The notes: generated from the sequence alone by a model not told the origin. Positions 7,101 through 56,118 are shown, counted from the stretch's first letter. The stretch: 64,000 bases of DNA from Candidatus Poseidoniales archaeon (GCA_038144595.1 JAYQOB010000003.1:1949-65948); one strand, 5' to 3'. A program made the numbers and translations.

Positions 7101-7823
7101 ATTCGCTTGGGCTTCGCTGGCGATGGTGGACGGCAGGATAATGCCGCGATTTTCGGACATGTTCTCCGGCGTTGGCCACTCGCCCAGTCCCGCGATGATG
7201 TTCTCGCTCAGTCGGTTGGCCAACTCGCCGTCGAAGGCTTCGGGACCGAGGAATCGGATGGCACGCTTGTCGGAGATGGGCGGGCCGGCATCGGCGGCTT
7301 CGGGATAGTCGAAGGTGACGTTGCTCCAATAGGGGTTCTCGTCGTCCACGATGGTCCGCATTTCAAGCGGTTGCGCGACCACGAATTCCAGGTTGAAGAA
7401 GCCGCCACTGTGAATCCCTTGCCGGCCGAGGACGAGGGTGCAGTCGTTGAATTCGTCTGAGAATTCAGTCAGCAATTCATCGCACACACCGGTCATGGTC
7501 GTGGTGTTGTTCGACCAGCCTGTGCCGTTTTCCACCGGCGTGCGGGCGTATTCGATCTTGGCGTCAAAGGGCTCGGATTTGAGCGATTCTTCGAAGAAAA
7601 GTTGCGACAATCCAACGCCGTACGCAAGCACCGTCGTGATGACGAGCGAAGCGAGGAAGACGCCCGCGATGACGGCAAGACCACGCTCTCGTCCGCGCCA
7701 TGCTCCTTGAGCGGCCAGGCGAAGTGAACTGGGAAGTTCAACCACTTTGTGTTGAATCCGGCGGAGGCGGGAGCGGTCGGTGGCGAAGTCGGACGGAACG
7801 AGTTCCTTTGGCTCGGCGCTCAT
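4199..7823 (-). pseudogene. giant fused double-FtsX (MacB/YbbP-like) ABC permease, read as two overlapping ORFs (5793..7823 and 4199..5848) because of an apparent 1-nt frameshift near 5850-5862
   Basis: First ORF: TM1, a roughly 330-aa ectodomain, an FtsX 3-TM bundle (...LEQRRREVSIHRVIGADGQRLQSMVLLE...), more TMs, ending in a TM (VNRLAVLMLLTLSIVTLAAVQGYTG) followed by out-of-frame junk. Second ORF has no N-terminal TM. It starts in an ectodomain and ends in a second FtsX bundle (...LSQRQKELAVLQAIGASPNQIIRLVLFE...). Removing one G from the GGG run restores ...AAVQGYTGTLVDEKTVDATVG... Confidence 0.75.
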
Positions 7824-8596
7824 TCTTCTTCACCTCCATCGGTGGTTTCTGCCGATGGTTCAGGGTCATCCGATGTTGAGTCGGTCTCGTCCTCGTCGTC
7901 AAGACCCCAAGCCGAGCGGATGTCGGAGGCTTCCGTCCGACCGTCGTTGAGCAACAACATGCGGTCGGCGTTGGACGCCAAGTCGGGGTCGTGGGTGACC
8001 ATGAGGATGGAAATCGGGTTCTCTTCGTCGTGGCAGAGCGCCTTGAACAGCGCCATGACTTCCTTGCCGCTGGCGATGTCAAGGTTGCCCGTGGGTTCGT
8101 CCGCTAACAAGACGGGACGGTTGCCCGCGATGGCTCGAGCGATGGCGACGCGCTGTTGTTGACCGCCCGAGAGTTGGTCGGGGATGAAGTGCATGCGGTC
8201 GCCCAGACCAACCTTCTCGAGGGCAGTGCGGGCTGCTGCTTCCGCTTCGCCGGACGGCATGCCGGAGAGTTCGAGGGCCATGGCGACATTGTCCACGGCC
8301 GTCAGGTTGTCGAGCAGGTGGAAATCTTGGAAAATCCAGCCGACGAGTTCACGGCGAACGTCCACGACGTTGGACGGGCCTCGCAAGCCGTAGGAGCGCT
8401 CGCCCAGCGTGATGGTGCCGCTGTCGCCGGCGAGCAGACCGCCGATGATGTTGAGCAGGGTGGACTTGCCGGACCCGGACGGGCCCATCAGGGCGACCAT
8501 CTCGCCCTGCTTGATGTTCATGTCCACGCCCTTGAGGACCTGGAGTTTGTTGGAGCCGGAACCGAACGCCTTGGTGAGTCCTTCAACTGATAACAT
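7820..8596 (-). CDS. ABC transporter ATP-binding protein (MacB/LolD type) with an acidic C-terminal tail
   Basis: MLSVEGLTKAFGSGSNKLQVLKGVDMNIKQGEMVALMGPSGSGKSTLL..., LSGGQQQRVAIARAI, LLADEPTGNLD, VTHD. Tail is DDEDETDSTSDDPEPSAETTDGGEEE. ATG at 8596 chosen (the tracked ORF extends to 8713). Its stop overlaps the permease start (ATGA, 7820-7823). Confidence 0.85.
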   Translation of the reverse strand: MLSVEGLTKAFGSGSNKLQVLKGVDMNIKQGEMVALMGPSGSGKSTLLNIIGGLLAGDSGTITLGERSYGLRGPSNVVDVRRELVGWIFQDFHLLDNLTAVDNVAMALELSGMPSGEAEAAARTALEKVGLGDRMHFIPDQLSGGQQQRVAIARAIAGNRPVLLADEPTGNLDIASGKEVMALFKALCHDEENPISILMVTHDPDLASNADRMLLLNDGRTEASDIRSAWGLDDEDETDSTSDDPEPSAETTDGGEEE

Positions 8597-10760: not shown

Positions 10761-10945
10761 CCCGCCCTCAACCGGCCGCCTGCTGACTCACCACGGACAC
10801 CCAGCGGTGCAAACCAACCCTTGCTGACCGAACACCGATTGGCCAAGCGAGTCTTTCATAGCATCGGGAAGTCGCCGCCATATCATCCGAGCCACCCCCA
10901 ACCGGCACAGGCCAACCGAGGAACGTGGCTCCAGGAGTGAGCCGC

Positions 10946-11957
10946 ATGGCAGGAATGGACCCGCAGCTGATAGCCAAACTGCAGAAGCAACGCTACCACA
11001 TTGTGGGTGAACACGGCGGCGTGAAAACGTGCCACTGGACCAAGGAATCGCTGCTTCGCGACCGCCAGTGCTACAAAGGCAAGTTCTACGGCGTCGCCAG
11101 CCACAACTGCATACAAATGTCGCCTGTGGTCGACCAGTGCAACCTGGCGTGCACCTACTGCTGGCGAGAACCGCACATGGACACGCTGGAACTGACCGAC
11201 CAAGACCCGCTCGACCTGCTCTACGAATCGGTGCGCGCCCAGCGCCGTCTGCTCTCGGGCTTCGGGGGCAACCCCAAGGTGCCTCGCGAGAAGTGGCTGG
11301 ACGCTCAGAACCCGAAGCACGTGGCGATCTCCCTCAACGGCGAGCCCACGCTTTACACCCGACTGGGCGAATACATGGACCTGTGCCACAAGCACGGGAT
11401 GACCACGATGCTGGTGACCAACGGCACGCTGCCCAAGGTGCTCGAGAAAGTTGGACACCCTGCCCACCCAACTCTATGTCTCGGTGGACGCCCCCAACAA
11501 GCAGGTGTTCGACGAGGTCTGCCGGCCCAAGTGGAACAGCGGTGCCTGGGAGCAGTTTGAGAAAACCATCGACCTCTTGCCCTCCCTCGACACCCGCATC
11601 GTCTGCCGACACACGCTGATGAAAGGGGTCAACATGAGCGACGCCCACATCAAAGAATTCGCTGCACTGGACAACCGTGCCGACCCCGATTTCATCGAAA
11701 ACAAGGGCTACGTGTTCGTGGGCCACAGCCGAGAAAACTTGGCCATGGAAAACATGCCCACCCACGACGACATCATGGCGTTCTCCCGAAAGATTGCGCC
11801 CCTCACGAACCGAGACGTGCTCTCCGATTCCCGACCCAGCCGAGTGGCGCTCGTCGGCACAGAAATCACGCCCATACCCATCCCGGAACCGACGATGTTC
11901 TTCCCCGAGGACCTCGGGATTGCACCGCCGGTCAAGCACCTGCCCGTCATCTCCTGA
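10946..11957 (+). pseudogene. taw1: tRNA 4-demethylwyosine synthase Taw1/TYW1 (radical SAM), interrupted by an apparent frameshift near 11445-11455
   Basis: KTCHWTKESLLRDRQCYKGKFYGVASHNCIQMSPVVDQCNLACTYCWREPH (Taw1-type auxiliary-cluster Cys plus CxxxCxxC radical-SAM motif) in ORF 10925..11560. Continuation DTLPTQLYVSVDAPNKQVFDEVCRPK...RHTLMKGVNM...FIENKGYVFVGHSRENL is in ORF 11451..11957. Start could be ATG 10925, 10946 or 10955. Confidence 0.8.
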
Positions 11958-12014: not shown

Positions 12015-12446
12015 ATGATCACCTTGGAAGAGGCACTCATTGCAGCAGGTGGTGGCGTTCTCATCGGGACCGCAGCGACCGTGCTGTTGGGATACAACGG
12101 GCGAACGGCAGGCATCAGCGGCATCTTGGGCGGGCTCGTCCCACCACAACAGGGCGACGCCAACTGGCGTGTCAGTTTCCTCGTCGGCATGGTCCTCGCT
12201 GGGCTGGCCTTGGCCCCCACCCTACCCAACGCCTTCACCACCCTCGAGCGCCCCGTCTGGACCATCGTGCTCGCCGGTCTGCTGGTCGGCGTGGGAACAC
12301 GACTTGGGAACGGTTGCACGAGCGGGCACGGGGTCTGCGGCATGGCACGGCTTTCCAAGCGATCCTTTGCCGCCGTGGGTGCGTTCATGGTGACGGGCGT
12401 GCTGACGGCGACCATCGTCGGTCAACTTCTGGGAGGGGTGGTATGA
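12015..12446 (+). CDS. YeeE/YedE-family sulfur-compound transport membrane protein (half-size)
   Basis: 143 aa, polytopic, with the family hallmark GNGCTSGHGVCG loop. Confidence 0.75.
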   Translation: MITLEEALIAAGGGVLIGTAATVLLGYNGRTAGISGILGGLVPPQQGDANWRVSFLVGMVLAGLALAPTLPNAFTTLERPVWTIVLAGLLVGVGTRLGNGCTSGHGVCGMARLSKRSFAAVGAFMVTGVLTATIVGQLLGGVV

Positions 12447-12871
12447 GCGACAACCGCATCCTCGCCGTTTCCTTCCTGAGCGGCCTGCTGTTCGGCGCCG
12501 GCCTCGTGATCTCAGGCATGACCGACCCCACGAAAGTCATCGGTTTCCTCGATGTTCTCAACGGTTGGGACCCAACCCTCGCCTTTGTCCTCGCAGGCGC
12601 CACGGGCAGCCACATGGCCGCCCGGCCGTTTCTCAAGCGAAAGGTTCCCGAACGCGTGGCTGCTGCCGTGGAAGACAAAGTCGACATCGACCAGCAACTC
12701 CTCGTGGGCGCAGCCGTGTTTGGCATCGGGTGGGGCCTTGGCGGCTACTGCCCTGGACCGGCCGTGGCGGCGGTCATTCCGGCGCTGGGCTCGACCCTGA
12801 TTTTTGTCGTCTCCATGGTGGTCGGCATGCTCGGGTTCCGCTGGCTTCAGGGGCGAGGGCTCGCAGATTGA
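12443..12871 (+). CDS. YeeE/YedE-family membrane protein, second half-size subunit
   Basis: ATG at 12443 overlaps the upstream stop (ATGA). MSDNRILAVSFLSGLLFGAGLVISGMTDPTKVIGFLD...GIGWGLGGYCPGPA, typical of the paired YedE/DUF6691 partner. Confidence 0.7.
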   Translation: MSDNRILAVSFLSGLLFGAGLVISGMTDPTKVIGFLDVLNGWDPTLAFVLAGATGSHMAARPFLKRKVPERVAAAVEDKVDIDQQLLVGAAVFGIGWGLGGYCPGPAVAAVIPALGSTLIFVVSMVVGMLGFRWLQGRGLAD

Positions 12872-12907
12872 GCGGTTGGTTGGCCATCCCACCCACGCTT
12901 TCAAATC

Positions 12908-13243
12908 ATGGACGCAGAAGCCTCGGTCATGCTCAACTGGCTCAAATCCCTGTTCTCCTCCGGCCCCGACCTTGGCGAACTGCTCGCTGAGGGTGCCCTC
13001 GTGGTGGATGTGCGAAGCCTGGGCGAATACCAAAGGGGGCACGTCAAGGGCTCCATGCACGTTCCGCTGCCGCAACTGAGCAAGAAGATCAACGCTGTCA
13101 AGAAGCAAAAGAAGACCGTCATTACGGTCTGTGCCAGCGGTATGCGCAGCGGCAAAGCAGCGAAGGTGTTGCGTTCACACGGCGTTGACGCCCACAACGG
13201 TGGACCCTGGCAGTCGGTCCAACGAAGGCAAAACGGCGAGTGA
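12908..13243 (+). CDS. single-domain rhodanese-like sulfurtransferase
   Basis: VVDVRSLGEYQRGHVKGSMHVPL...VITVCASGMRSGKAAKVLRSHG; active-site loop CASGMRS (C-x4-R/S type). Confidence 0.8.
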   Translation: MDAEASVMLNWLKSLFSSGPDLGELLAEGALVVDVRSLGEYQRGHVKGSMHVPLPQLSKKINAVKKQKKTVITVCASGMRSGKAAKVLRSHGVDAHNGGPWQSVQRRQNGE

Positions 13244-16358: not shown

Positions 16359-16364
16359 TTTATA
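16359..16364 (+). promoter_or_regulatory. TATA-box-like element for the E1-like/JAMM operon (leaderless-type spacing)
   Basis: TTTATA in the 46-nt spacer, centred about 27 nt upstream of the ATG at 16388 (ggatacTTTATAgccactgacgagccatctcttgtATG). A comparable ATTTTTAT lies about 29 nt before the HADH-ECH ATG at 19869. Confidence 0.45.
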
Positions 16365-16387
16365 GCCACTGACGAGCCATCTCTTGT

Positions 16388-17023
16388 ATGAACGAGGAGC
16401 AATCGCCACGAAACCTGCTGCTGGTCGGTGCTGGAGGCATCGGCACCCAACTGGCCGAACTGTTGGTGGCCGCCCTTCGCAGGGTCAATCTGCAGGGCAC
16501 CATCACGCTCATGGACGCCGACATCGTTGAGGCGTCCAATCTGGGCCACCAACGCTACACAACCGAAGACATCGGTCACGCCAAGGTGAGCGCCCTGGCC
16601 GCCCGACTCGACGATGCGGACTCGGACCTCCGCGTCAAGGCCGTGGAAGAAAACCTCCGCTCGGCCGACCAGTTCGACGGCCACGACCTCGTCGTCGTGT
16701 GCGTTGACCGCCCGGAGCCTCGCCGCCTCGTCCATGGCCTCGATGTTCCTTGGCTTGATGTTCGCTGCAGCGGGGACGGGTGGATGGTGCTGTCCTCCGC
16801 GTCCGACCCCGCGCTCCTCGAGCGCATGACGCCCGACCACGAACCGGCCAGCTGTCAGGTGGCCGGGGCCCTTGAGGCGGGCAACTTGGAGTTCGGTTTT
16901 GCCGTGGCCGCCGCCTACGGCGCGCAATGGGCGCTCCAGCAATGGCGCGGGCACCACGCCCCCGTGCAGTCAATGGGCAGCCTGACCTACGGTTCGCTGG
17001 CTTTCCCGGAGGTGAGCGCATGA
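16388..17023 (+). CDS. minimal E1-like adenylyltransferase (ThiF/MoeB/HesA superfamily)
   Basis: 211 aa. LLLVGAGGIGTQLAELL (GxGGxG), LMDADIVEASNLGHQ (DxDxVxxSNLxxQ), DIGHAKVSALAARL and DLVVVCVD follow the ThiF/MoeB adenylation-domain order. Only three Cys (VVCVD, RCSG, ASCQV) and no CxxC pairs. No rhodanese or E2 domain. Confidence 0.8.
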   Translation: MNEEQSPRNLLLVGAGGIGTQLAELLVAALRRVNLQGTITLMDADIVEASNLGHQRYTTEDIGHAKVSALAARLDDADSDLRVKAVEENLRSADQFDGHDLVVVCVDRPEPRRLVHGLDVPWLDVRCSGDGWMVLSSASDPALLERMTPDHEPASCQVAGALEAGNLEFGFAVAAAYGAQWALQQWRGHHAPVQSMGSLTYGSLAFPEVSA

Positions 17024-17568
17024 TCGGCCTTCCCGATGCAGCCGACCTCCCCTTGGACGACGAGACCTGGGAACAGGCTTGCCTTGCCGCTGAGGAACGC
17101 TGGGTGGAGGACGAGCATCTCCTCAACGCACAGCGCATCCTCGCCCAGGCAGGTCGATGGGACGGCGTCTACGTGCTTTCGGTCATCGCCGGTCTCGAGA
17201 CCTCGGTGCTCATTGACGCCGACGACAAGGTGTTCATCGACTGGGGGACCGCCGGCCAAGTGACCCTTCAACCACCGGTCGGTGGTCGTTTGCCGTTCAA
17301 GCTCTGGGTTCACACCCATCCTCGGTTTGCCGCCTACTGGAGCGGGACCGACGTCAACAGCCTCAGCCTCGGCGCTCGTATCCTCGAGTCCGCCATGGTG
17401 CTGGGCCAACCCGGGCCGAAGCACAGCAGCAACCGCTCGCTGGTGGAGGTCAACACGACGGCCACGCTCGCCGAGGACGGCCCGCTCAACCATTGGACGG
17501 ACGAGGAGCCCGTTCCATGGTCGGAGTGGTACACCCTCAACGACATCAACACCGAGGTGGTCGAATGA
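17020..17568 (+). CDS. JAMM/MPN+ (JAB) family metalloprotease
   Basis: ATG at 17020 overlaps the E1-like stop (ATGA 17020-17023). 183 aa. Exact JAMM motif H-x-H-x7-S-x2-D in WVHTHPRFAAYWSGTDVNS (nt 17311-17352). The upstream catalytic Glu could not be placed confidently. Confidence 0.75.
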   Translation: MIGLPDAADLPLDDETWEQACLAAEERWVEDEHLLNAQRILAQAGRWDGVYVLSVIAGLETSVLIDADDKVFIDWGTAGQVTLQPPVGGRLPFKLWVHTHPRFAAYWSGTDVNSLSLGARILESAMVLGQPGPKHSSNRSLVEVNTTATLAEDGPLNHWTDEEPVPWSEWYTLNDINTEVVE

Positions 17569-17801
17569 CGGCGCGTGGACCCAAGGATGAGGAAGAGCGA
17601 TTCAAGGCGCTCCTGGCCGTCCTCAACGGCAGAGGGCGCAGCATCGCCGACGTCATCGAGGAGCTCACGGGCGAACCGCCGAGTGAGGAGACCGTTGAGG
17701 CGGTCAAGAACCGCCTCCAAATGGCCCAAGAAAGCGGAGAACAGGTGGACATTCTCGCCGTGGTTCAGGCGATGAACGAATTGGCCAGTCAGTGGGCTTG
17801 A
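17565..17801 (+). CDS. small acidic hypothetical protein (78 aa), translationally coupled to the JAMM gene
   Basis: ATG at 17565 overlaps the JAMM stop (ATGA 17565-17568). MTARGPKDEEERFKALLAVLNGRGRSIADVIEELTGEPPSEETVEAVKNRLQMAQESGEQVDILAVVQAMNELASQWA. Heptad-like helical pattern, no Cys, no C-terminal GG. Confidence 0.5.
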   Translation: MTARGPKDEEERFKALLAVLNGRGRSIADVIEELTGEPPSEETVEAVKNRLQMAQESGEQVDILAVVQAMNELASQWA

Positions 17802-19869
17802 TCACTGGTTGGTGTAGGTCGGTCGTCGGTTTTCGATCAGCGCTGAGAGCCCTTCGAGGGCGTCTTTGGTGGCGAAAATCGTGTTCAGGCCGTCCAACTC
17901 CAGTTGAAGACCCGCCTGCAAATCCGTGCTGGCCGTCGCATCGATGAGGTCGCTGGCCATCTGAAGCCCAATGGGCGCCGTGAAGGAAAGGCTCTTGATT
18001 TGACGAGCCACGATCTTCTCGCCTTGGTCAAAGCCGTCGGGGCATTCACCGTTCATCAACACGGGCATGTTCTCGTCGGCAAAGAACGAGGTGGCAAACT
18101 TGGCCACCGGTGAGGACGGGTTGGCGGGCTGGCCGGGGTACTTGACCGCCGGCTTGCCCTCCGAAGCGAGCGCAGCAATGCATTCGTCCACACCCGCCAC
18201 GTCGACGAGGTGCGTGACCAAGCCAAGGTCAGCTGCCGTGGTGGCGTCCATGAAATTGCCAGCAAGAACCGCCCAGCGAGCCACGGGGATGCCGCAGATA
18301 CGAGCAGGGCGCTGTGAGCCACCCAAGCCCGGGTAGATGCCGATGGAGGTCTCGGGGAAGCGGAATTGGGTGCGGCGGGTACCGATGCGATAGTCGCAGG
18401 CCAACGCAAGTTCGAGTCCACCACCCAGCGCCAGTCCGGTGGTCAGCGCCACGGTGGTCTTGCTGGAGGTTTCCAGCATGTTGAGCAGTTCGTGGCCTTC
18501 GGCGGTAAAGTCGTAGATGTCCGGAATGGCATCGGCACGGATCTTATCGACGAAGAATTTCACGTCAGCGCCAGCCACGAAGGCCTTGCCTGCACCGTCG
18601 AGCACGATGGTATGAACCGCATCGTTGGCGTTGGCAGCGGCGACGGCCTGCGTCAACTGATTCACCACGGTGACGTTGAGCGCATTCATGGCTTCGGGGC
18701 GGTTGATGGTGAGGGTGGCCACGCCGTCGTTGACGCGACTGTCGACGTAGGAGAAGCTCCAGGCGCCATCACCCTGGTCGGAGAAAAAGGCAGGAACGTT
18801 CCAGCCCTCACCGGCGGTTTGGGCGTAGGCCTTGGCCATGCGGCAGGCTTCGCCAACACCGATTCGATTCATCATCTCAAAGGGCCCACGGGCCCAGCGC
18901 AGACCCACTTTGGCCCCGCGGTCAACGTCTTCCATGCTGCAGATGTCTTCTTCCACGATTTGAGCGGCGACACCAAACACCACGCCGAGCAGGCGCTCGG
19001 ACACGGTCGTGTACTGCTCGTCGGTGTAGGTGGCCTCCTCGGAGACGTCCCACTGTTCGTTGGCTTCAACCAGCGCACGCAAGTTGGCAGCGCCCGTGTA
19101 ACGAGGCGTGTTGAGTTGCTCGGCAAGGTAGTCGGTGGAATGGAGCGCGATGGGTGGCCCGGTCAGGTTCATCAAACCGAAGGGGCCGAGGCCGATGCGG
19201 AAGGCCTTGCAGGCGATGGCGTCGATTTGGGCGGCGTTTGCAGCGCCTTCCTCGAGCAGCAAGCAGGCCTCGTTGAGCCATGGAACGAAGAAGCGGTTCA
19301 CGACAAACCCGGGTCGGTCAGCGCACACGATGACCACTTTGCCGAGCATCTTGCAGTACTGAACGACCGTCGACGGTGTCCTGACTGGAGGCTTCGGCCG
19401 GGATAACCTCAACCAAACGGTTCTTGGCAGGGTGGTAGAAGAAATGCAGACCGACAAAACGGTCGGCTCGACCGGTGGCTTCAGCCAGCGCATTGACGGA
19501 CAGCGAGGACGTGTTCGAGGCAAGGATGGTGTCTTCTCCACAGGCTTCGTCAAGGGTGTTGAACACGGCGGTTTTGACATCGAAGTCCTCAAACACGGCT
19601 TCGATGACCAGGTCGGTGTTTTCAGCGGTGTTTTCCACGCCCACCACGCCGGTGATGCGTCCTTGAATGGCCTCAACCTGTGCGGGCGAGAAAATACGAC
19701 GCTCGACGGCTTCCTCGAGGAAGTTGGCAATGATGGATTGGCCACGCTCAACCCACTGGAGTTCACGGTCAACCATTTGGACGTCAAATTCTTCCTGAGC
19801 GCTTTTCTGAGCGATGCCGGAGCCCATGTTGCCTGCGCCGACCACGGCCACACGTTGGATAGGTTGCAT
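17802..19869 (-). pseudogene. bifunctional 3-hydroxyacyl-CoA dehydrogenase (N-terminal) / enoyl-CoA hydratase (C-terminal), interrupted by an apparent 1-nt frameshift near 19364-19376
   Basis: ORF 19318..19869: MQPIQRVAVVGAGNMGSGIAQK...ASNTSSLSV...GLHFFYHPAKNRLVEVI (HADH NAD-binding domain). Continuation ...TVVQYCKMLGKVVIVCADRPGFVVNRFF... then the crotonase fold (TINRPEAMNAL...DGAGKAFVAGADV...GLALGGGLELALACDYRI...FPETSIGIYPGLGGSQR) is in ORF 17802..19886. The HADH-then-ECH order is the arrangement known from archaeal fusion enzymes. Confidence 0.8.
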
Positions 19870-19894
19870 GGTTCGTCCGAATTCAATGCACTAC

Positions 19895-55521: not shown

Positions 55522-56118
55522 TCAATCGAGGGGCCAGACATGACGCTCGGCCTTGTCCATGAGAATCTCTTGCGACCATTCACCCACTTGGTGGACGAAC
55601 GTGTCCGGCTGACGAAGCTGGCCGGTGTAATCGCGGTACTCGAGGTCAATGATGAGGTTGTATTCATCCCAGACCGTGTAGCCAACGACCATCATTTCCA
55701 AGTCGTCGCCTGAGATGGACGAGTGGCTTTCCAAGAGGTCCAATTCCAAGGACATGCTGTCGATGAGCGTCCCGTCCAGCGTTTGGAATTCAATCTCAAG
55801 GACGACATCGGTGATGGCTCGGCTGCCATCGTTGTGAAGTTCAGCCATCATCAAATGGCCACCGCGTTGCATGTAGTGTGTTTCAACGGTCACCGAATCT
55901 CGCGGAAGCACCCAGTACCATCCGCTGACGGCGAGCGTGATGAGCATGAACAACACGGCACCCGCCATGGCCACACGGGCGGGTGTGATTTCTCGCTTGA
56001 GGGTGGTCAAAATTTTGGCCGCTTCCTGTGCGGCCTCCCAGTCATCAAGTTCCTGCCCCTCGAGCGGGGAGCCGCCCTGACGCAGATCTTCAGCCGTTGG
56101 TTCAACCATGTTGATCAC
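55522..56118 (-). CDS. hypothetical single-pass membrane protein
   Basis: 198 aa. Acidic N-terminus, TM AMAGAVLFMLITLAVSGWYWVL, then a roughly 120-aa ectodomain. GTG at 56118 overlaps the stop of the upstream giant gene (GTGA); alternative ATG at 56109. Confidence 0.5.
   Translation of the reverse strand: MINMVEPTAEDLRQGGSPLEGQELDDWEAAQEAAKILTTLKREITPARVAMAGAVLFMLITLAVSGWYWVLPRDSVTVETHYMQRGGHLMMAELHNDGSRAITDVVLEIEFQTLDGTLIDSMSLELDLLESHSSISGDDLEMMVVGYTVWDEYNLIIDLEYRDYTGQLRQPDTFVHQVGEWSQEILMDKAERHVWPLD

What the first reader, a model, noticed from the sequence alone, without database searches (positions are those of the whole stretch)
16359..17801. Orphan E1-like (ThiF) / JAMM / 78-aa helical protein operon with no ubiquitin-like or E2 partner
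Three plus-strand genes form a self-contained unit. A TTTATA box (16359-16364) lies about 27 nt before the first ATG, a leaderless-type archaeal promoter spacing. ATGA stop/start overlaps occur at 17020-17023 and 17565-17568.

- Gene 1 (211 aa) has the ThiF/MoeB adenylation signature (GAGGIG; DADIVEASNLGHQ; DIGHAKV). It is far shorter than MoeB/UbaA-type E1s, has no CxxC zinc pairs and no rhodanese or E2 module.
- Gene 2 (183 aa) carries an exact JAMM motif HxHx7Sx2D (HTHPRFAAYWSGTD, nt 17311-17352).
- Gene 3 (78 aa, acidic, apparently all-helical, ending ...ASQWA) is not beta-grasp-like and lacks a GG terminus.

No ThiS/MoaD/SAMP/ubiquitin-like ORF and no E2 is visible in the operon or its flanks. 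E1+JAB pairs are the core of prokaryotic Ub-like conjugation and deconjugation modules: archaeal SAMP/UbaA/JAMM, CBASS Cap2/Cap3, Bil/Bub-type antiphage operons and PRTRC cassettes. In CBASS the E1 acts on the C terminus of a non-Ubl enzyme, and MccB/PaaA-type E1 homologs act on peptide C termini.

An E1-JAMM pair whose only dedicated partner is a small helical protein does not match any architecture I know. It is also nested in a glycosylation locus (gmd and two GT4 genes; the upstream GT4 ends ...RMMGL). It could be a new C-terminal adenylation/conjugation or defence module.
Basis: partly seen in the sequence, partly recalled or inferred. Interest (0 to 1): 0.85.

Follow-up and report, generated by a model that had tools for sequence, protein, structure and literature searches.

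The report
Archaeal E1–JAMM–helical protein operon
A three-gene operon conserved across the abundant marine archaea Poseidoniales encodes a stripped-down ubiquitin-activating-type enzyme, a matching metalloprotease and a small helical protein; because relatives in other archaea and in viruses resembling those of these archaea carry a predicted diglycine ubiquitin-like tag next to the same two enzymes, it is most likely an undescribed ubiquitin-like tagging or processing system whose tag gene lies elsewhere in this genome.

Summary
Three translationally coupled genes lie at 16388-17801: a 211-aa minimal ThiF/E1, a 182-aa divergent JAMM with an invariant E…HxH…S..D site, and a 78-aa acidic four-helix protein. 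A conserved TATA-like box sits about 29 nt upstream.

The window comes from a Poseidoniales (Marine Group II) archaeon. The triad keeps its order in 84 of 86 related loci and in about 60 further metagenome loci. It occupies a syntenic chromosomal site and is under purifying selection (dN/dS 0.12-0.19).

The "orphan, no Ubl" reading is true only locally. The same E1 and JAMM families occur in 298 marine viral contigs that look like magroviruses. In 48 of the 80 examined, a 66-68-aa protein ends in …PAIVGG, with or without 1-2 extra residues. Natural E1-JAMM fusions all have such a protein immediately upstream. One cellular locus (L195) carries it together with E1, JAMM and a clear homologue of the 78-aa protein.

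Best explanation: this is an undescribed family of Ubl-activating and Ubl-processing systems. In Poseidoniales its Ubl gene is unlinked, and the helical protein is a cell-specific accessory subunit. It does not look like a defence island or part of the glycosylation locus. I rate it a new variant of a known kind. The shared host and virus distribution appears unreported.

The parts
16359..16364 (+). TATA-like box (TTTATA) about 29 nt upstream of the gene-1 ATG; probable archaeal promoter of a leaderless or near-leaderless transcript
   Evidence: Sequence. TTTA[AT] occurs at -33 to -22 in 50 of 78 orthologous loci. Function as a promoter is inferred, not shown.
16388..17023 (+). Gene 1: a 211-aa minimal E1-like (ThiF-family) adenylation domain. 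It lacks the N-terminal RYxRQ helix, CxxC zinc pairs, rhodanese and E2.
   Evidence: Pfam ThiF E=9.4e-22. It is below all NCBIfam cut-offs. E. coli ThiF is the best PDB sequence match (E=2e-8). The family is conserved in 132 host, viral and fused sequences.
16427..16444 (+). GAGGIG nucleotide-binding loop of gene 1 (residues 14-19)
   Evidence: Conserved family-wide as GxGGIG.
16538..16552 (+). NLGHQ motif of gene 1 (residues 51-55). The Arg of the canonical NLxRQ motif is replaced by His.
   Evidence: NLGHQ is invariant in 80 Poseidoniales orthologues. Fused forms and other cellular relatives have H; viruses have Y. In the alignment to ThiF, the H aligns with the R of NLQRQ.
16703..16726 (+). 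VDRPEPRR (residues 106-113). D107 aligns with the Mg-binding Asp of ThiF and MoeB.
   Evidence: Alignment to 1zud. The D is conserved family-wide. The Mg-binding role comes from established knowledge of MoeB and ThiF.
16850..16858 (+). SCQ (residues 155-157). C156 is a candidate catalytic Cys that aligns with the crossover-loop Cys of ThiF.
   Evidence: SCQ is conserved in at least 95% of 132 host, viral and fused E1s. It aligns with NCRTAG of E. coli ThiF. A catalytic role is inferred.
17020..17568 (+). Gene 2: a 182-aa divergent JAMM/MPN+ metalloprotease with three N-terminal helices
   Evidence: A profile search finds 149 representative clusters, including two natural ThiF-JAMM fusions.
17197..17199 (+). 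Codon of E60, the upstream catalytic Glu of the JAMM motif
   Evidence: Invariant in 49 close and 44 distant homologues.
17311..17352 (+). HxHx7Sx2D metal-binding and catalytic motif (H98, H100, S108, D111)
   Evidence: H98, H100 and D111 are invariant and S108 nearly so across the family. The motif aligns with the Rpn11-like and AMSH motifs.
17565..17801 (+). Gene 3: a 78-aa acidic (pI 4.45) four-helix protein. It has a conserved N-terminal VRxPxDxxE motif and a C-terminal W-x(0-5)-A tendency. It is a cell-type-specific accessory subunit of unknown role.
   Evidence: AlphaFold predicts four helices (pLDDT 70). No family or fold match. 599 homologues were found. dN/dS is 0.19. It lies directly downstream of the JAMM in MGII and in distant cellular relatives. 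It was not found in viral contigs.

Best explanation
The triad is the chromosomal, cell-type version of a previously undescribed family of Ubl-activating and Ubl-processing modules. Marine archaea share this family with viruses that look like their own.

Proposed mechanism:
1. The E1 binds ATP and adenylates the C-terminal glycine of a small diglycine Ubl.
2. Its conserved crossover-loop Cys (C156) then forms a thioester or acyl-persulfide with the Ubl.
3. The JAMM trims the 1-2 residues that follow GG in the Ubl precursor and probably also cleaves Ubl conjugates.
4. The 78-aa helical protein is made in step with the JAMM through the ATGA overlap. It is a cell-specific accessory subunit, acting as an adaptor or regulator bound to the E1 and/or the JAMM.

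In Poseidoniales the Ubl gene is not linked to the operon.

Shown: the genes, their motifs, their conservation, and the co-occurrence patterns across cells, viruses and fusions.

Inferred: every enzymatic step, the existence of a Poseidoniales Ubl, the beta-grasp fold of the GG-ended protein, and the role of gene 3.

Unresolved: whether the output is protein conjugation or sulfur transfer (for example for tRNA modification).
For: Functional linkage of E1 and JAMM:
- They overlap by 4 nt in 76 of 83 loci.
- They are fused into one 405-407-aa protein in two representative clusters and 9 metagenome loci.
- They are adjacent or nearly so in 72 of 80 viral loci; in the other 8 the upstream DNA is cut off.

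The GG-ended Ubl-like protein belongs to the family's systems:
- 48 of 80 viral loci encode a 66-68-aa protein ending in PAIVGG. Of the 45 viral copies counted, it ends at GG in 14, one residue later in 2 and two residues later in 29.
- All 9 fusion loci have one immediately upstream, ending in …LQGGH/Q or …LVGG[SFL]C.
- L195 is cellular by synteny with L194 (enolase, aminotransferase, RNR, YbjN). It has Ubl(…LVGGVQ)-X379-X232-E1-X68-JAMM-gene 3 on one strand.
- The L195 gene 3 hits MGII gene 3 at 40-47% identity (E about 1e-13). Its Ubl hits viral and fused Ubls at 32-36% identity (E about 1e-11 to 1e-14).

Active sites are retained:
- E1: GxGGIG, the D.D.VE acidic pair, K, the Mg Asp and the SCQ Cys are conserved in 132 sequences.
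- JAMM: E, H, H, (S) and D are invariant.

The C-terminal extensions after GG give the JAMM an evident job. The precedent is JAMM processing in QbsD/QbsE-type and CysO/Mec+ sulfur-carrier systems (established knowledge; the JAB-with-E1 and Ubl operons are described in Iyer et al. 2006).

Core-gene behaviour:
- Relatives were found in 141 stretches of species-representative genomes. All 80 listed are Poseidoniales or unclassified marine archaeal MAGs.
- Synteny is fixed and selection is purifying.
Against: - No Ubl was found in the 64-kb window or within 6-8 kb of about 145 cellular split-type loci. The Poseidoniales Ubl is therefore hypothetical.
- The beta-grasp fold of the GG-ended protein is not shown. 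It has no Pfam or PDB sequence hit. hhalign against E. coli ThiS (sequence recalled from memory) gives only E=1.3e-3 and 18% probability, though it aligns in register through the terminal GG.
- The canonical Arg of the NLxRQ motif is lost family-wide, and the N-terminal Arg-finger helix and the C-terminal Ubl-binding/zinc module of ThiF and MoeB are missing. Adenylation competence is therefore not assured.
- The JAMM matches known MPN structures only weakly (TM about 0.3).
- Gene 3 has no detectable relatives of known function, so its role is a guess.
- Homology between gene 3 and the small ORF downstream of the fusions is only moderately supported (hhalign E=8.7e-5, 60% probability).
Confidence: 0.55

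Rival explanations
1. The 78-aa helical protein, or another non-Ubl protein such as the upstream GT4, is itself the E1 substrate. Its C-terminus would be adenylated and conjugated, and the JAMM would reverse this, as Cap2/Cap3 do on the CD-NTase C-terminus.
For: - Gene 3 is the only dedicated small partner in about 145 cellular loci.
- Its C-terminus tends towards W-x(0-5)-A: QWA, EWQEANA, WRKEMA, WRESLA.
- A small terminal residue such as Ala is accepted by some E1-like enzymes (own knowledge of CBASS Cap2).
Against: - The last residue is not fixed. A is the commonest, but V, I, S and Q also occur, and the W is missing in some.
- In the model the C-terminus is the end of a helix, not a flexible tail.
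- Gene 3 co-exists with a GG-ended Ubl-like protein in L195, and probably in the fusion loci, so it does not replace the Ubl.
- Viruses have the E1 and JAMM without gene 3.
- GT4a is absent from 26 of 86 loci.
Confidence: 0.12
2. This is a sulfur-carrier or nucleic-acid-modification pathway rather than protein tagging. The E1 would activate a carboxylate, either a Ubl thiocarboxylate donor or a modified-tRNA side chain as TcdA does, for a tRNA modification step. The JAMM would mature or recycle the carrier.
For: - TYW1 (wyosine synthesis) is the most persistent neighbour across deep lineages. It overlaps the E1 start in L001-L003, lies convergent in L182 and lies within 6 kb in 17-19 of 86 loci.
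- No E2 or E3 domain was seen among the neighbouring proteins scanned here.
- JAB + E1 + ThiS/MoaD triads in bacteria are mostly sulfur-transfer systems (PMC1779556).
- TcdA is among the PDB sequence hits (E=1.5e-4).
- The window also has a rhodanese and a YeeE-like pair 3 kb upstream.
Against: - The rhodanese and YeeE genes are specific to this lineage; a rhodanese occurs in 1 of 86 loci.
- TYW1 proximity may be plain synteny.
- Gene 1 scores far below the TcdA, ThiF and MoeB cut-offs.
- Viruses carrying Ubl, E1 and JAMM have no evident sulfur or tRNA-thiolation genes nearby.
Confidence: 0.2
3. This is a virus-host conflict module. The chromosomal E1-JAMM-gene-3 set would act on the virus-encoded Ubl system, for example by deconjugating or sequestering the viral Ubl. 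Alternatively, the virus would exploit it.
For: - The same E1 and JAMM families, not generic ThiF or JAB, occur in 298 viral contigs resembling viruses of this host order.
- The GG-ended Ubl is found in the viruses but not near the host operon.
- Gene 3 is host-specific.
- E1/JAB/Ubl systems are antiviral in bacteria (Bil, CBASS Cap2/3; literature listed).
Against: - The host operon sits at one syntenic site, is vertically inherited and evolves under purifying selection, unlike typical defence islands.
- Apart from partial Rossmann-domain matches of gene 1 to E1-E2 and BilD models, genes 2 and 3 have no PADLOC match.
- In the JAMM tree the viral and cellular clades are deeply separated, so no recent exchange is evident.
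Confidence: 0.1

Closest known systems
Archaeal SAMP / UbaA / HvJAMM1 system (Haloferax volcanii)
   Same: Archaeal. An E1-like enzyme acts without an E2. A JAMM/MPN+ protease partners it. The Ubl is encoded away from the enzymes. It may serve both conjugation and sulfur transfer.
   Different: Gene 1 scores 40.6 bits against a 450-bit cut-off for the UbaA model. It is about 60 residues shorter, has no CxxC zinc site, and has His in place of the NLxRQ Arg. The E1 and JAMM are translationally coupled here. A third helical subunit exists here that the SAMP system lacks.
Bacterial ThiS/MoaD-like + E1 + JAB operons (Iyer, Burroughs and Aravind 2006, types 4a-4d; QbsCDE and CysO/Mec+ type)
   Same: Ubl with residues after GG, plus E1, plus a JAB that trims it. 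Type 4b lacks the Ubl in cis. Type 4d carries an extra uncharacterised helical protein.
   Different: Those E1s carry a C-terminal rhodanese domain and sit with sulfur-metabolism or siderophore genes. Here there is no rhodanese fusion and no conserved metabolic neighbour. No homology of gene 3 to the 4d helical protein was tested.
CBASS Cap2/Cap3 and Bil (BilABCD) / 6A-MBL antiphage E1-JAB systems
   Same: An E1 Rossmann domain paired with a JAB. The best PADLOC matches of gene 1 are to E1-E2 (Cap2-like) and BilD models.
   Different: The matches cover only the nucleotide-binding half of the E1. There is no E2 domain, CD-NTase or effector. The JAMM and gene 3 have no PADLOC hit. The locus is a core syntenic site, not a defence island.
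PRTRC (ParB-related, ThiF-related cassette)
   Same: A short ThiF-family protein. The TIGR03736 match is among the best (58.5 bits).
   Different: The score is far below the 144.75-bit cut-off. No ParB or PRTRC A-F proteins are present. The locus is chromosomal, not on a plasmid or ICE.
Lambdoid phage tail-assembly Ubl (TAPI) + JAB (TAPK)
   Same: A virus-encoded Ubl-like protein with a JAB peptidase.
   Different: Those lack an E1 and lie in the tail module. The magrovirus-like Ubl-E1-JAMM set lies among replication-type genes (ligase, RNR, GroEL).

Membership tests
ThiF/E1-like adenyltransferase superfamily (PF00899) | Rossmann-type GxGxxG nucleotide loop plus acidic ribose-binding residue | tested here: met
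   GAGGIG (residues 14-19) and MDADIVE (42-48). Pfam ThiF E=9.4e-22, 77.8 bits against a 28.1-bit cut-off. Conserved in 132 family members.
ThiF/E1-like adenyltransferase superfamily (PF00899) | Conserved Arg of the NLxRQ motif (ATP phosphate contact) | tested here: not met
   NLGHQ is invariant in orthologues. The H aligns with the R of ThiF NLQRQ. Viruses have Y. The consequence for catalysis is unknown.
ThiF/E1-like adenyltransferase superfamily (PF00899) | Mg-binding Asp and conserved Lys | tested here: met
   D107 (VDRP) and K66 (HAKV) align with ThiF and are conserved family-wide.
Housekeeping MoeB / ThiF / UbaA equivalogs | Score above the curated NCBIfam equivalog cut-off; C-terminal CxxC…CxxC zinc module | tested here: not met
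   Best scores are 59.9 against 159 (ThiF PRK08644), 45.2 against 449 (MoeB) and 40.6 against 450 (UbaA). The 211-aa sequence has no CxxC.
JAMM/MPN+ metalloprotease | E…HxHx7Sx2D catalytic and zinc-binding motif | tested here: met
   E60, H98, H100, S108 and D111 are invariant in 49 homologues. E, H, H and D are invariant and S nearly so in 44 distant ones.
JAMM/MPN+ metalloprotease | MPN fold / significant match to a JAB profile | tested here: inconclusive
   Prok-JAB E=0.019, 15.3 bits against a 25-bit cut-off. PDB profile hits to Rpn11-like and AMSH proteins are at E=0.19-0.3. Foldseek top hits are Rpn11 and CSN5, but at E about 2e-3 and TM about 0.3. BFVD hits include MPN/JAB-annotated viral proteins.
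JAMM/MPN+ metalloprotease | Zinc-dependent isopeptidase or peptidase activity | not testable with these tools
   Needs an enzyme assay.
Ubl-E1-JAB conjugation or sulfur-carrier system | A small beta-grasp protein with C-terminal GG encoded with, or demonstrably used by, the E1 | tested here: inconclusive
   Absent from the window and from within 6-8 kb of about 145 cellular loci. GG-ended 66-87-aa proteins are present in 48 of 80 viral loci, 9 of 9 fusion loci and the cellular locus L195. Their beta-grasp fold is not shown.
CBASS Cap2/Cap3 or Bil antiphage systems | E2 (UBC-like) domain or gene, and an associated effector, CD-NTase or Ubl in the operon | tested here: not met
   Gene 1 is a 211-aa E1 domain only. 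PADLOC matches cover only E1 residues 5-116 of 450-780-aa models. Genes 2 and 3 have no PADLOC hit. The neighbours are FadB-like, GT4, GMD and HxlR.
PRTRC cassette | ParB-related protein and PRTRC proteins A-F alongside the ThiF | tested here: not met
   TIGR03736 scores 58.5 bits against a 144.75-bit cut-off. No such neighbours appear in any locus.

The most novel reading that the evidence does not exclude
The 78-aa four-helix protein could be a new kind of participant in E1 chemistry. It could be a non-beta-grasp protein whose C-terminus is activated by the E1. Alternatively, it could be a host-specific factor that lets the chromosomal E1/JAMM intercept the Ubl encoded by magrovirus-like viruses. 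The second reading would make this a core-genome host-virus ubiquitin-like conflict in one of the ocean's most abundant archaea.
Probability: 0.15. Interest if true: 0.9.

Novelty: new variant of a known kind. Interest (0 to 1): 0.62.

Why it matters
[quoted passage not shown] A core, strongly conserved E1-JAMM operon of unknown role is a gap in their basic biology.

The comparative result reaches beyond the window. It defines a coherent family made of a minimal E1 lacking the canonical Arg, a divergent JAMM, a predicted diglycine Ubl with short C-terminal extensions, and a cell-specific helical subunit. The family spans archaeal chromosomes, natural E1-JAMM fusions and hundreds of magrovirus-like viral contigs.

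Ubl-E1-JAMM modules encoded by viruses of archaea are not mentioned in the main text of the three magrovirus papers I searched. If confirmed, they would add archaeal viruses to the recent picture of ubiquitin-like conjugation in prokaryotic virus-host interactions. They would also give a tractable minimal system, with an E1 of 185-211 aa and no E2, for studying how Ubl activation works without the usual Arg finger and Ubl-binding domain.

Tried and rejected
- Defence-system assignment: PADLOC gave only partial Rossmann-domain matches for gene 1 and nothing for genes 2 and 3. Rejected as membership.
- Housekeeping ThiF, MoeB, UbaA or TcdA: all scores are far below the curated cut-offs.
- Fold assignment for gene 3: the PDB profile search and Foldseek gave only noise, at E>0.09 and E>3. 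A JGI label of "ParB-like nuclease family protein" on one homologue has no support from any search.
- Functional link to glycosylation, or to the nearby rhodanese and YeeE genes: the synteny survey shows these are lineage-specific neighbours.
- Ubl hunt in the host: a scan for GG-terminal ORFs and a Ubl-family HMM over the window and all cellular loci found nothing.
The same happened for the broad gene-3 alignment on viral contigs.
- GenBank phage records hold no homologue of the viral JAMM.
- The fusion protein has no close relative in IMG/VR.
- Rfam found nothing in the window.
- Pfam did not confirm my impression that some small viral ORFs are GroES-like or histone-fold-like.
- A first hhalign of gene 3 against the small ORFs downstream of the fusions was not significant (E=0.029). 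A broader gene-3 alignment gave E=8.7e-5 at 60% probability.
Full report
**What is in the window**

- Gene 1 is 16388-17023 (211 aa).
- Gene 2 is 17020-17568 (182 aa, not 183).
- Gene 3 is 17565-17801 (78 aa).
- ATGA overlaps lie at 17020-17023 and 17565-17568.
- TTTATA lies at 16359-16364, 29 nt before the first ATG.
- Gene 3 ends directly against the stop codon of a convergent FadB-like gene (17802-19886).

The window has 60% GC. The names attached to homologues, such as Candidatus Poseidonia, Poseidoniaceae and Poseidoniales, identify it as a Marine Group II archaeon.

**The three proteins**

Gene 1 is a ThiF-family domain (Pfam E=9.4e-22).
- It reaches no curated equivalog. The best NCBIfam scores are ThiF 59.9 against 159 bits, PRTRC ThiF 58.5 against 144.75, MoeB 45.2 against 449 and UbaA 40.6 against 450.
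- PADLOC E1-E2 and BilD models match only its nucleotide-binding half.
- E. coli ThiF is the best solved relative (E=2e-8).
- That alignment, together with 132 family members, shows several retained features: GxGGIG, the acidic D.D.VE, the Lys, the Mg-binding Asp (D107), and a Cys (C156, "SCQ", conserved in at least 95%) that aligns with the ThiF crossover-loop Cys.
- Several canonical features are missing: the N-terminal helix, the CxxC zinc module, and the Arg of NLxRQ. That Arg is His in all cellular members and Tyr in the viral ones.

Gene 2 matches Prok-JAB only weakly (E=0.019).
- E60, H98, H100, S108 and D111 are invariant.
- The model is confident (pLDDT 92.7).
- Its best PDB matches are Rpn11 and CSN5, followed by cytidine deaminases. 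The scores are low (E about 2e-3, TM about 0.3).
- Its best viral-structure matches reach E=1e-9 and include proteins annotated as MPN/JAB.

Gene 3 is an acidic four-helix protein (pLDDT 70). It has no relative in Pfam, NCBIfam, PADLOC, PHROGs or the PDB.

**Conservation in Poseidoniales**

- A scan of species-representative genomes found 141 relatives of gene 2. All 80 listed come from Poseidoniales or unclassified marine archaeal MAGs.
- In 84 of 86 loci, genes 1, 2 and 3 occur in that order. One exception is cut by a contig end. Overlaps are almost always 4 nt.
- Median dN/dS is 0.12, 0.15 and 0.19, so the 78-aa ORF is a real gene.
- A TTTA[AT] box sits at -33 to -22 in 50 of 78 loci.
- The site is syntenic. 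FadB-like is present in 83 of 86 loci, GMD in 71, GT4a in 60 and TYW1 in 17-19. A rhodanese occurs in only 1.
- The glycosylation genes and the rhodanese/YeeE genes of this window are therefore lineage neighbours, not conserved partners.
- TYW1 is the most persistent deep neighbour. It overlaps the E1 start in L001-L003 and lies convergent in L182.

**Beyond Poseidoniales**

A profile of gene 2 run against 1.84 billion representative proteins found 149 clusters.
- Two clusters are natural ThiF-JAMM fusions of 405 and 407 aa.
- Their contigs carry an 82-87-aa ORF ending in …LQGGH or …LVGGSC, then the fusion, then an 85-86-aa acidic helical ORF.
- A metagenome scan found 9 fusion loci. Every one has the GG-ended ORF immediately upstream.
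- The same scan returned about 60 split E1-JAMM-gene-3 loci with 45-62% GC. None has a Ubl within 8 kb.

One locus, L195, has seven co-directional genes, mostly overlapping: Ubl(…LVGGVQ)-X379-X232-E1-X68-JAMM-gene 3.
- L195 is cellular by synteny with L194, which carries enolase, an aminotransferase, class II RNR and YbjN.
- Its gene 3 hits MGII gene 3 at 40-47% identity (E about 1e-13).
- Its Ubl hits the viral and fusion-type Ubls at 32-36% identity (E about 1e-11 to 1e-14).
- The GG-ended protein and gene 3 therefore co-exist, so gene 3 is not a stand-in for it.
- hhalign of a broad gene-3 alignment against the small ORFs downstream of the fusions gives E=8.7e-5 and 60% probability. This is moderate support for homology.

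**The viral connection**

- 298 IMG/VR contigs encode the JAMM family.
- The 80 loci examined have 31-41% GC. Many contigs are 90-96 kb. They carry GroEL, class II RNR, ATP-dependent ligase and TFIIB-like genes.
- This fits the published description of magroviruses, the viruses assigned to Marine Group II (PMC5434244). The assignment is my inference.
- In 72 of 80 loci a ThiF matching the Poseidoniales gene-1 profile (E=1e-23 to 1e-31) lies upstream on the same strand. In the other 8 the upstream DNA is missing.
- In 48 loci a 66-68-aa protein ending in …PAIVGG lies 3-7 kb upstream. Of the 45 viral copies counted, it ends at GG in 14, one residue later in 2 and two residues later in 29.
- Gene 3 was not found in viral contigs.
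- An NJ tree of the JAMM separates a viral clade, the Poseidoniales clade and a third clade holding the fusions. The split is deep, so there is no sign of recent transfer.
- The main text of the three magrovirus papers contains none of ThiF, JAB or ubiquitin.

**Interpretation**

The family's complete parts list is a Ubl with GG and often a short extension, a minimal E1, a JAMM and, in cells, the helical protein.
- The extensions give the JAMM a maturation role.
- The conserved Cys and ATP-site residues argue that the E1 is active.
- The most likely reading (confidence about 0.55) is a Ubl activation and processing module whose Ubl gene is unlinked in Poseidoniales.

Three things remain undecided: whether the system conjugates proteins or transfers sulfur, whether it interacts with the viral Ubl, and what gene 3 does.

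The idea that gene 3 is the E1 substrate is not excluded, but several facts count against it: its variable last residue, its helical C-terminus and its co-occurrence with the GG-ended protein.

Bacterial precedents already exist for E1+JAB operons without a Ubl in cis, and for ones with extra helical proteins (PMC1779556). This is therefore a new variant of a known kind, not a new category.

**Limits**

- No Poseidoniales Ubl was identified.
- The beta-grasp fold of the GG-ended protein rests on its length, its diglycine end, its genomic context and a weak in-register hhalign match to ThiS (E=1.3e-3). The ThiS sequence was recalled from memory.
- No multimer prediction or biochemistry was possible.

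Noticed in passing
window 10925-11957: The TYW1/Taw1 (wyosine radical-SAM) gene is split into two overlapping ORFs in different frames. ORF 10925-11560 holds the Radical_SAM part and ORF 11451-11957 the Wyosine_form part. This indicates a frameshift, either a pseudogene or an assembly error. It is intact (334 aa) in L001 and L003 and also split in L002.
   Followed up: partly
window 12015-13243: A pair of YeeE/YedE-like sulfur-transport half-proteins and a 111-aa single-domain rhodanese lie between TYW1 and the GST/GMD genes. This block is specific to the window's lineage; a rhodanese was seen in only 1 of 86 related loci.
   Followed up: partly
L097-L176 (IMG/VR contigs), e.g. L105:4515-4715, 7327-7881, 7878-8480: Magrovirus-like contigs carry a Ubl(GG)-E1-JAMM module among replication-type genes. 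In about half of the loci a roughly 354-aa protein with a weak Myb-like match is inserted between the E1 and the JAMM. The main text of the three magrovirus papers searched does not mention this module.
   Followed up: partly
L147:9659-9877 and 45 other viral loci (family F5): A conserved 72-aa ORF lies just upstream of the viral GroEL gene. By eye it resembles a GroES-type co-chaperonin, but Pfam gave no hit. The 2017 magrovirus paper assumed that no GroES is encoded.
   Followed up: partly
L195:4684-6598 and 7278-7484: Three uncharacterised genes (379, 232 and 68 aa) are interleaved with the Ubl, E1 and JAMM in the only cellular locus that has all the parts. They have no Pfam hits and no homologues in the other loci. 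By eye the 68-aa protein looks Myb/SANT-like, echoing the viral insert between the E1 and the JAMM.
   Followed up: partly
L007 and L020 (both from MAG XS_MAG49, JAYYDY01): One MAG holds two copies of the triad on different contigs, 99% and 80% identical to the window's gene 2. This suggests a mixed-population bin rather than a true duplication.
   Followed up: no
P0293 (homologue of gene 3): JGI names this 78-aa protein "uncharacterized ParB-like nuclease family protein". No search here supports that name.
   Followed up: partly
window 55990-56073: A single tRNA-Arg(CCT) gene is the only tRNA in the 64-kb window. No Rfam family reached threshold anywhere in the window.
   Followed up: no
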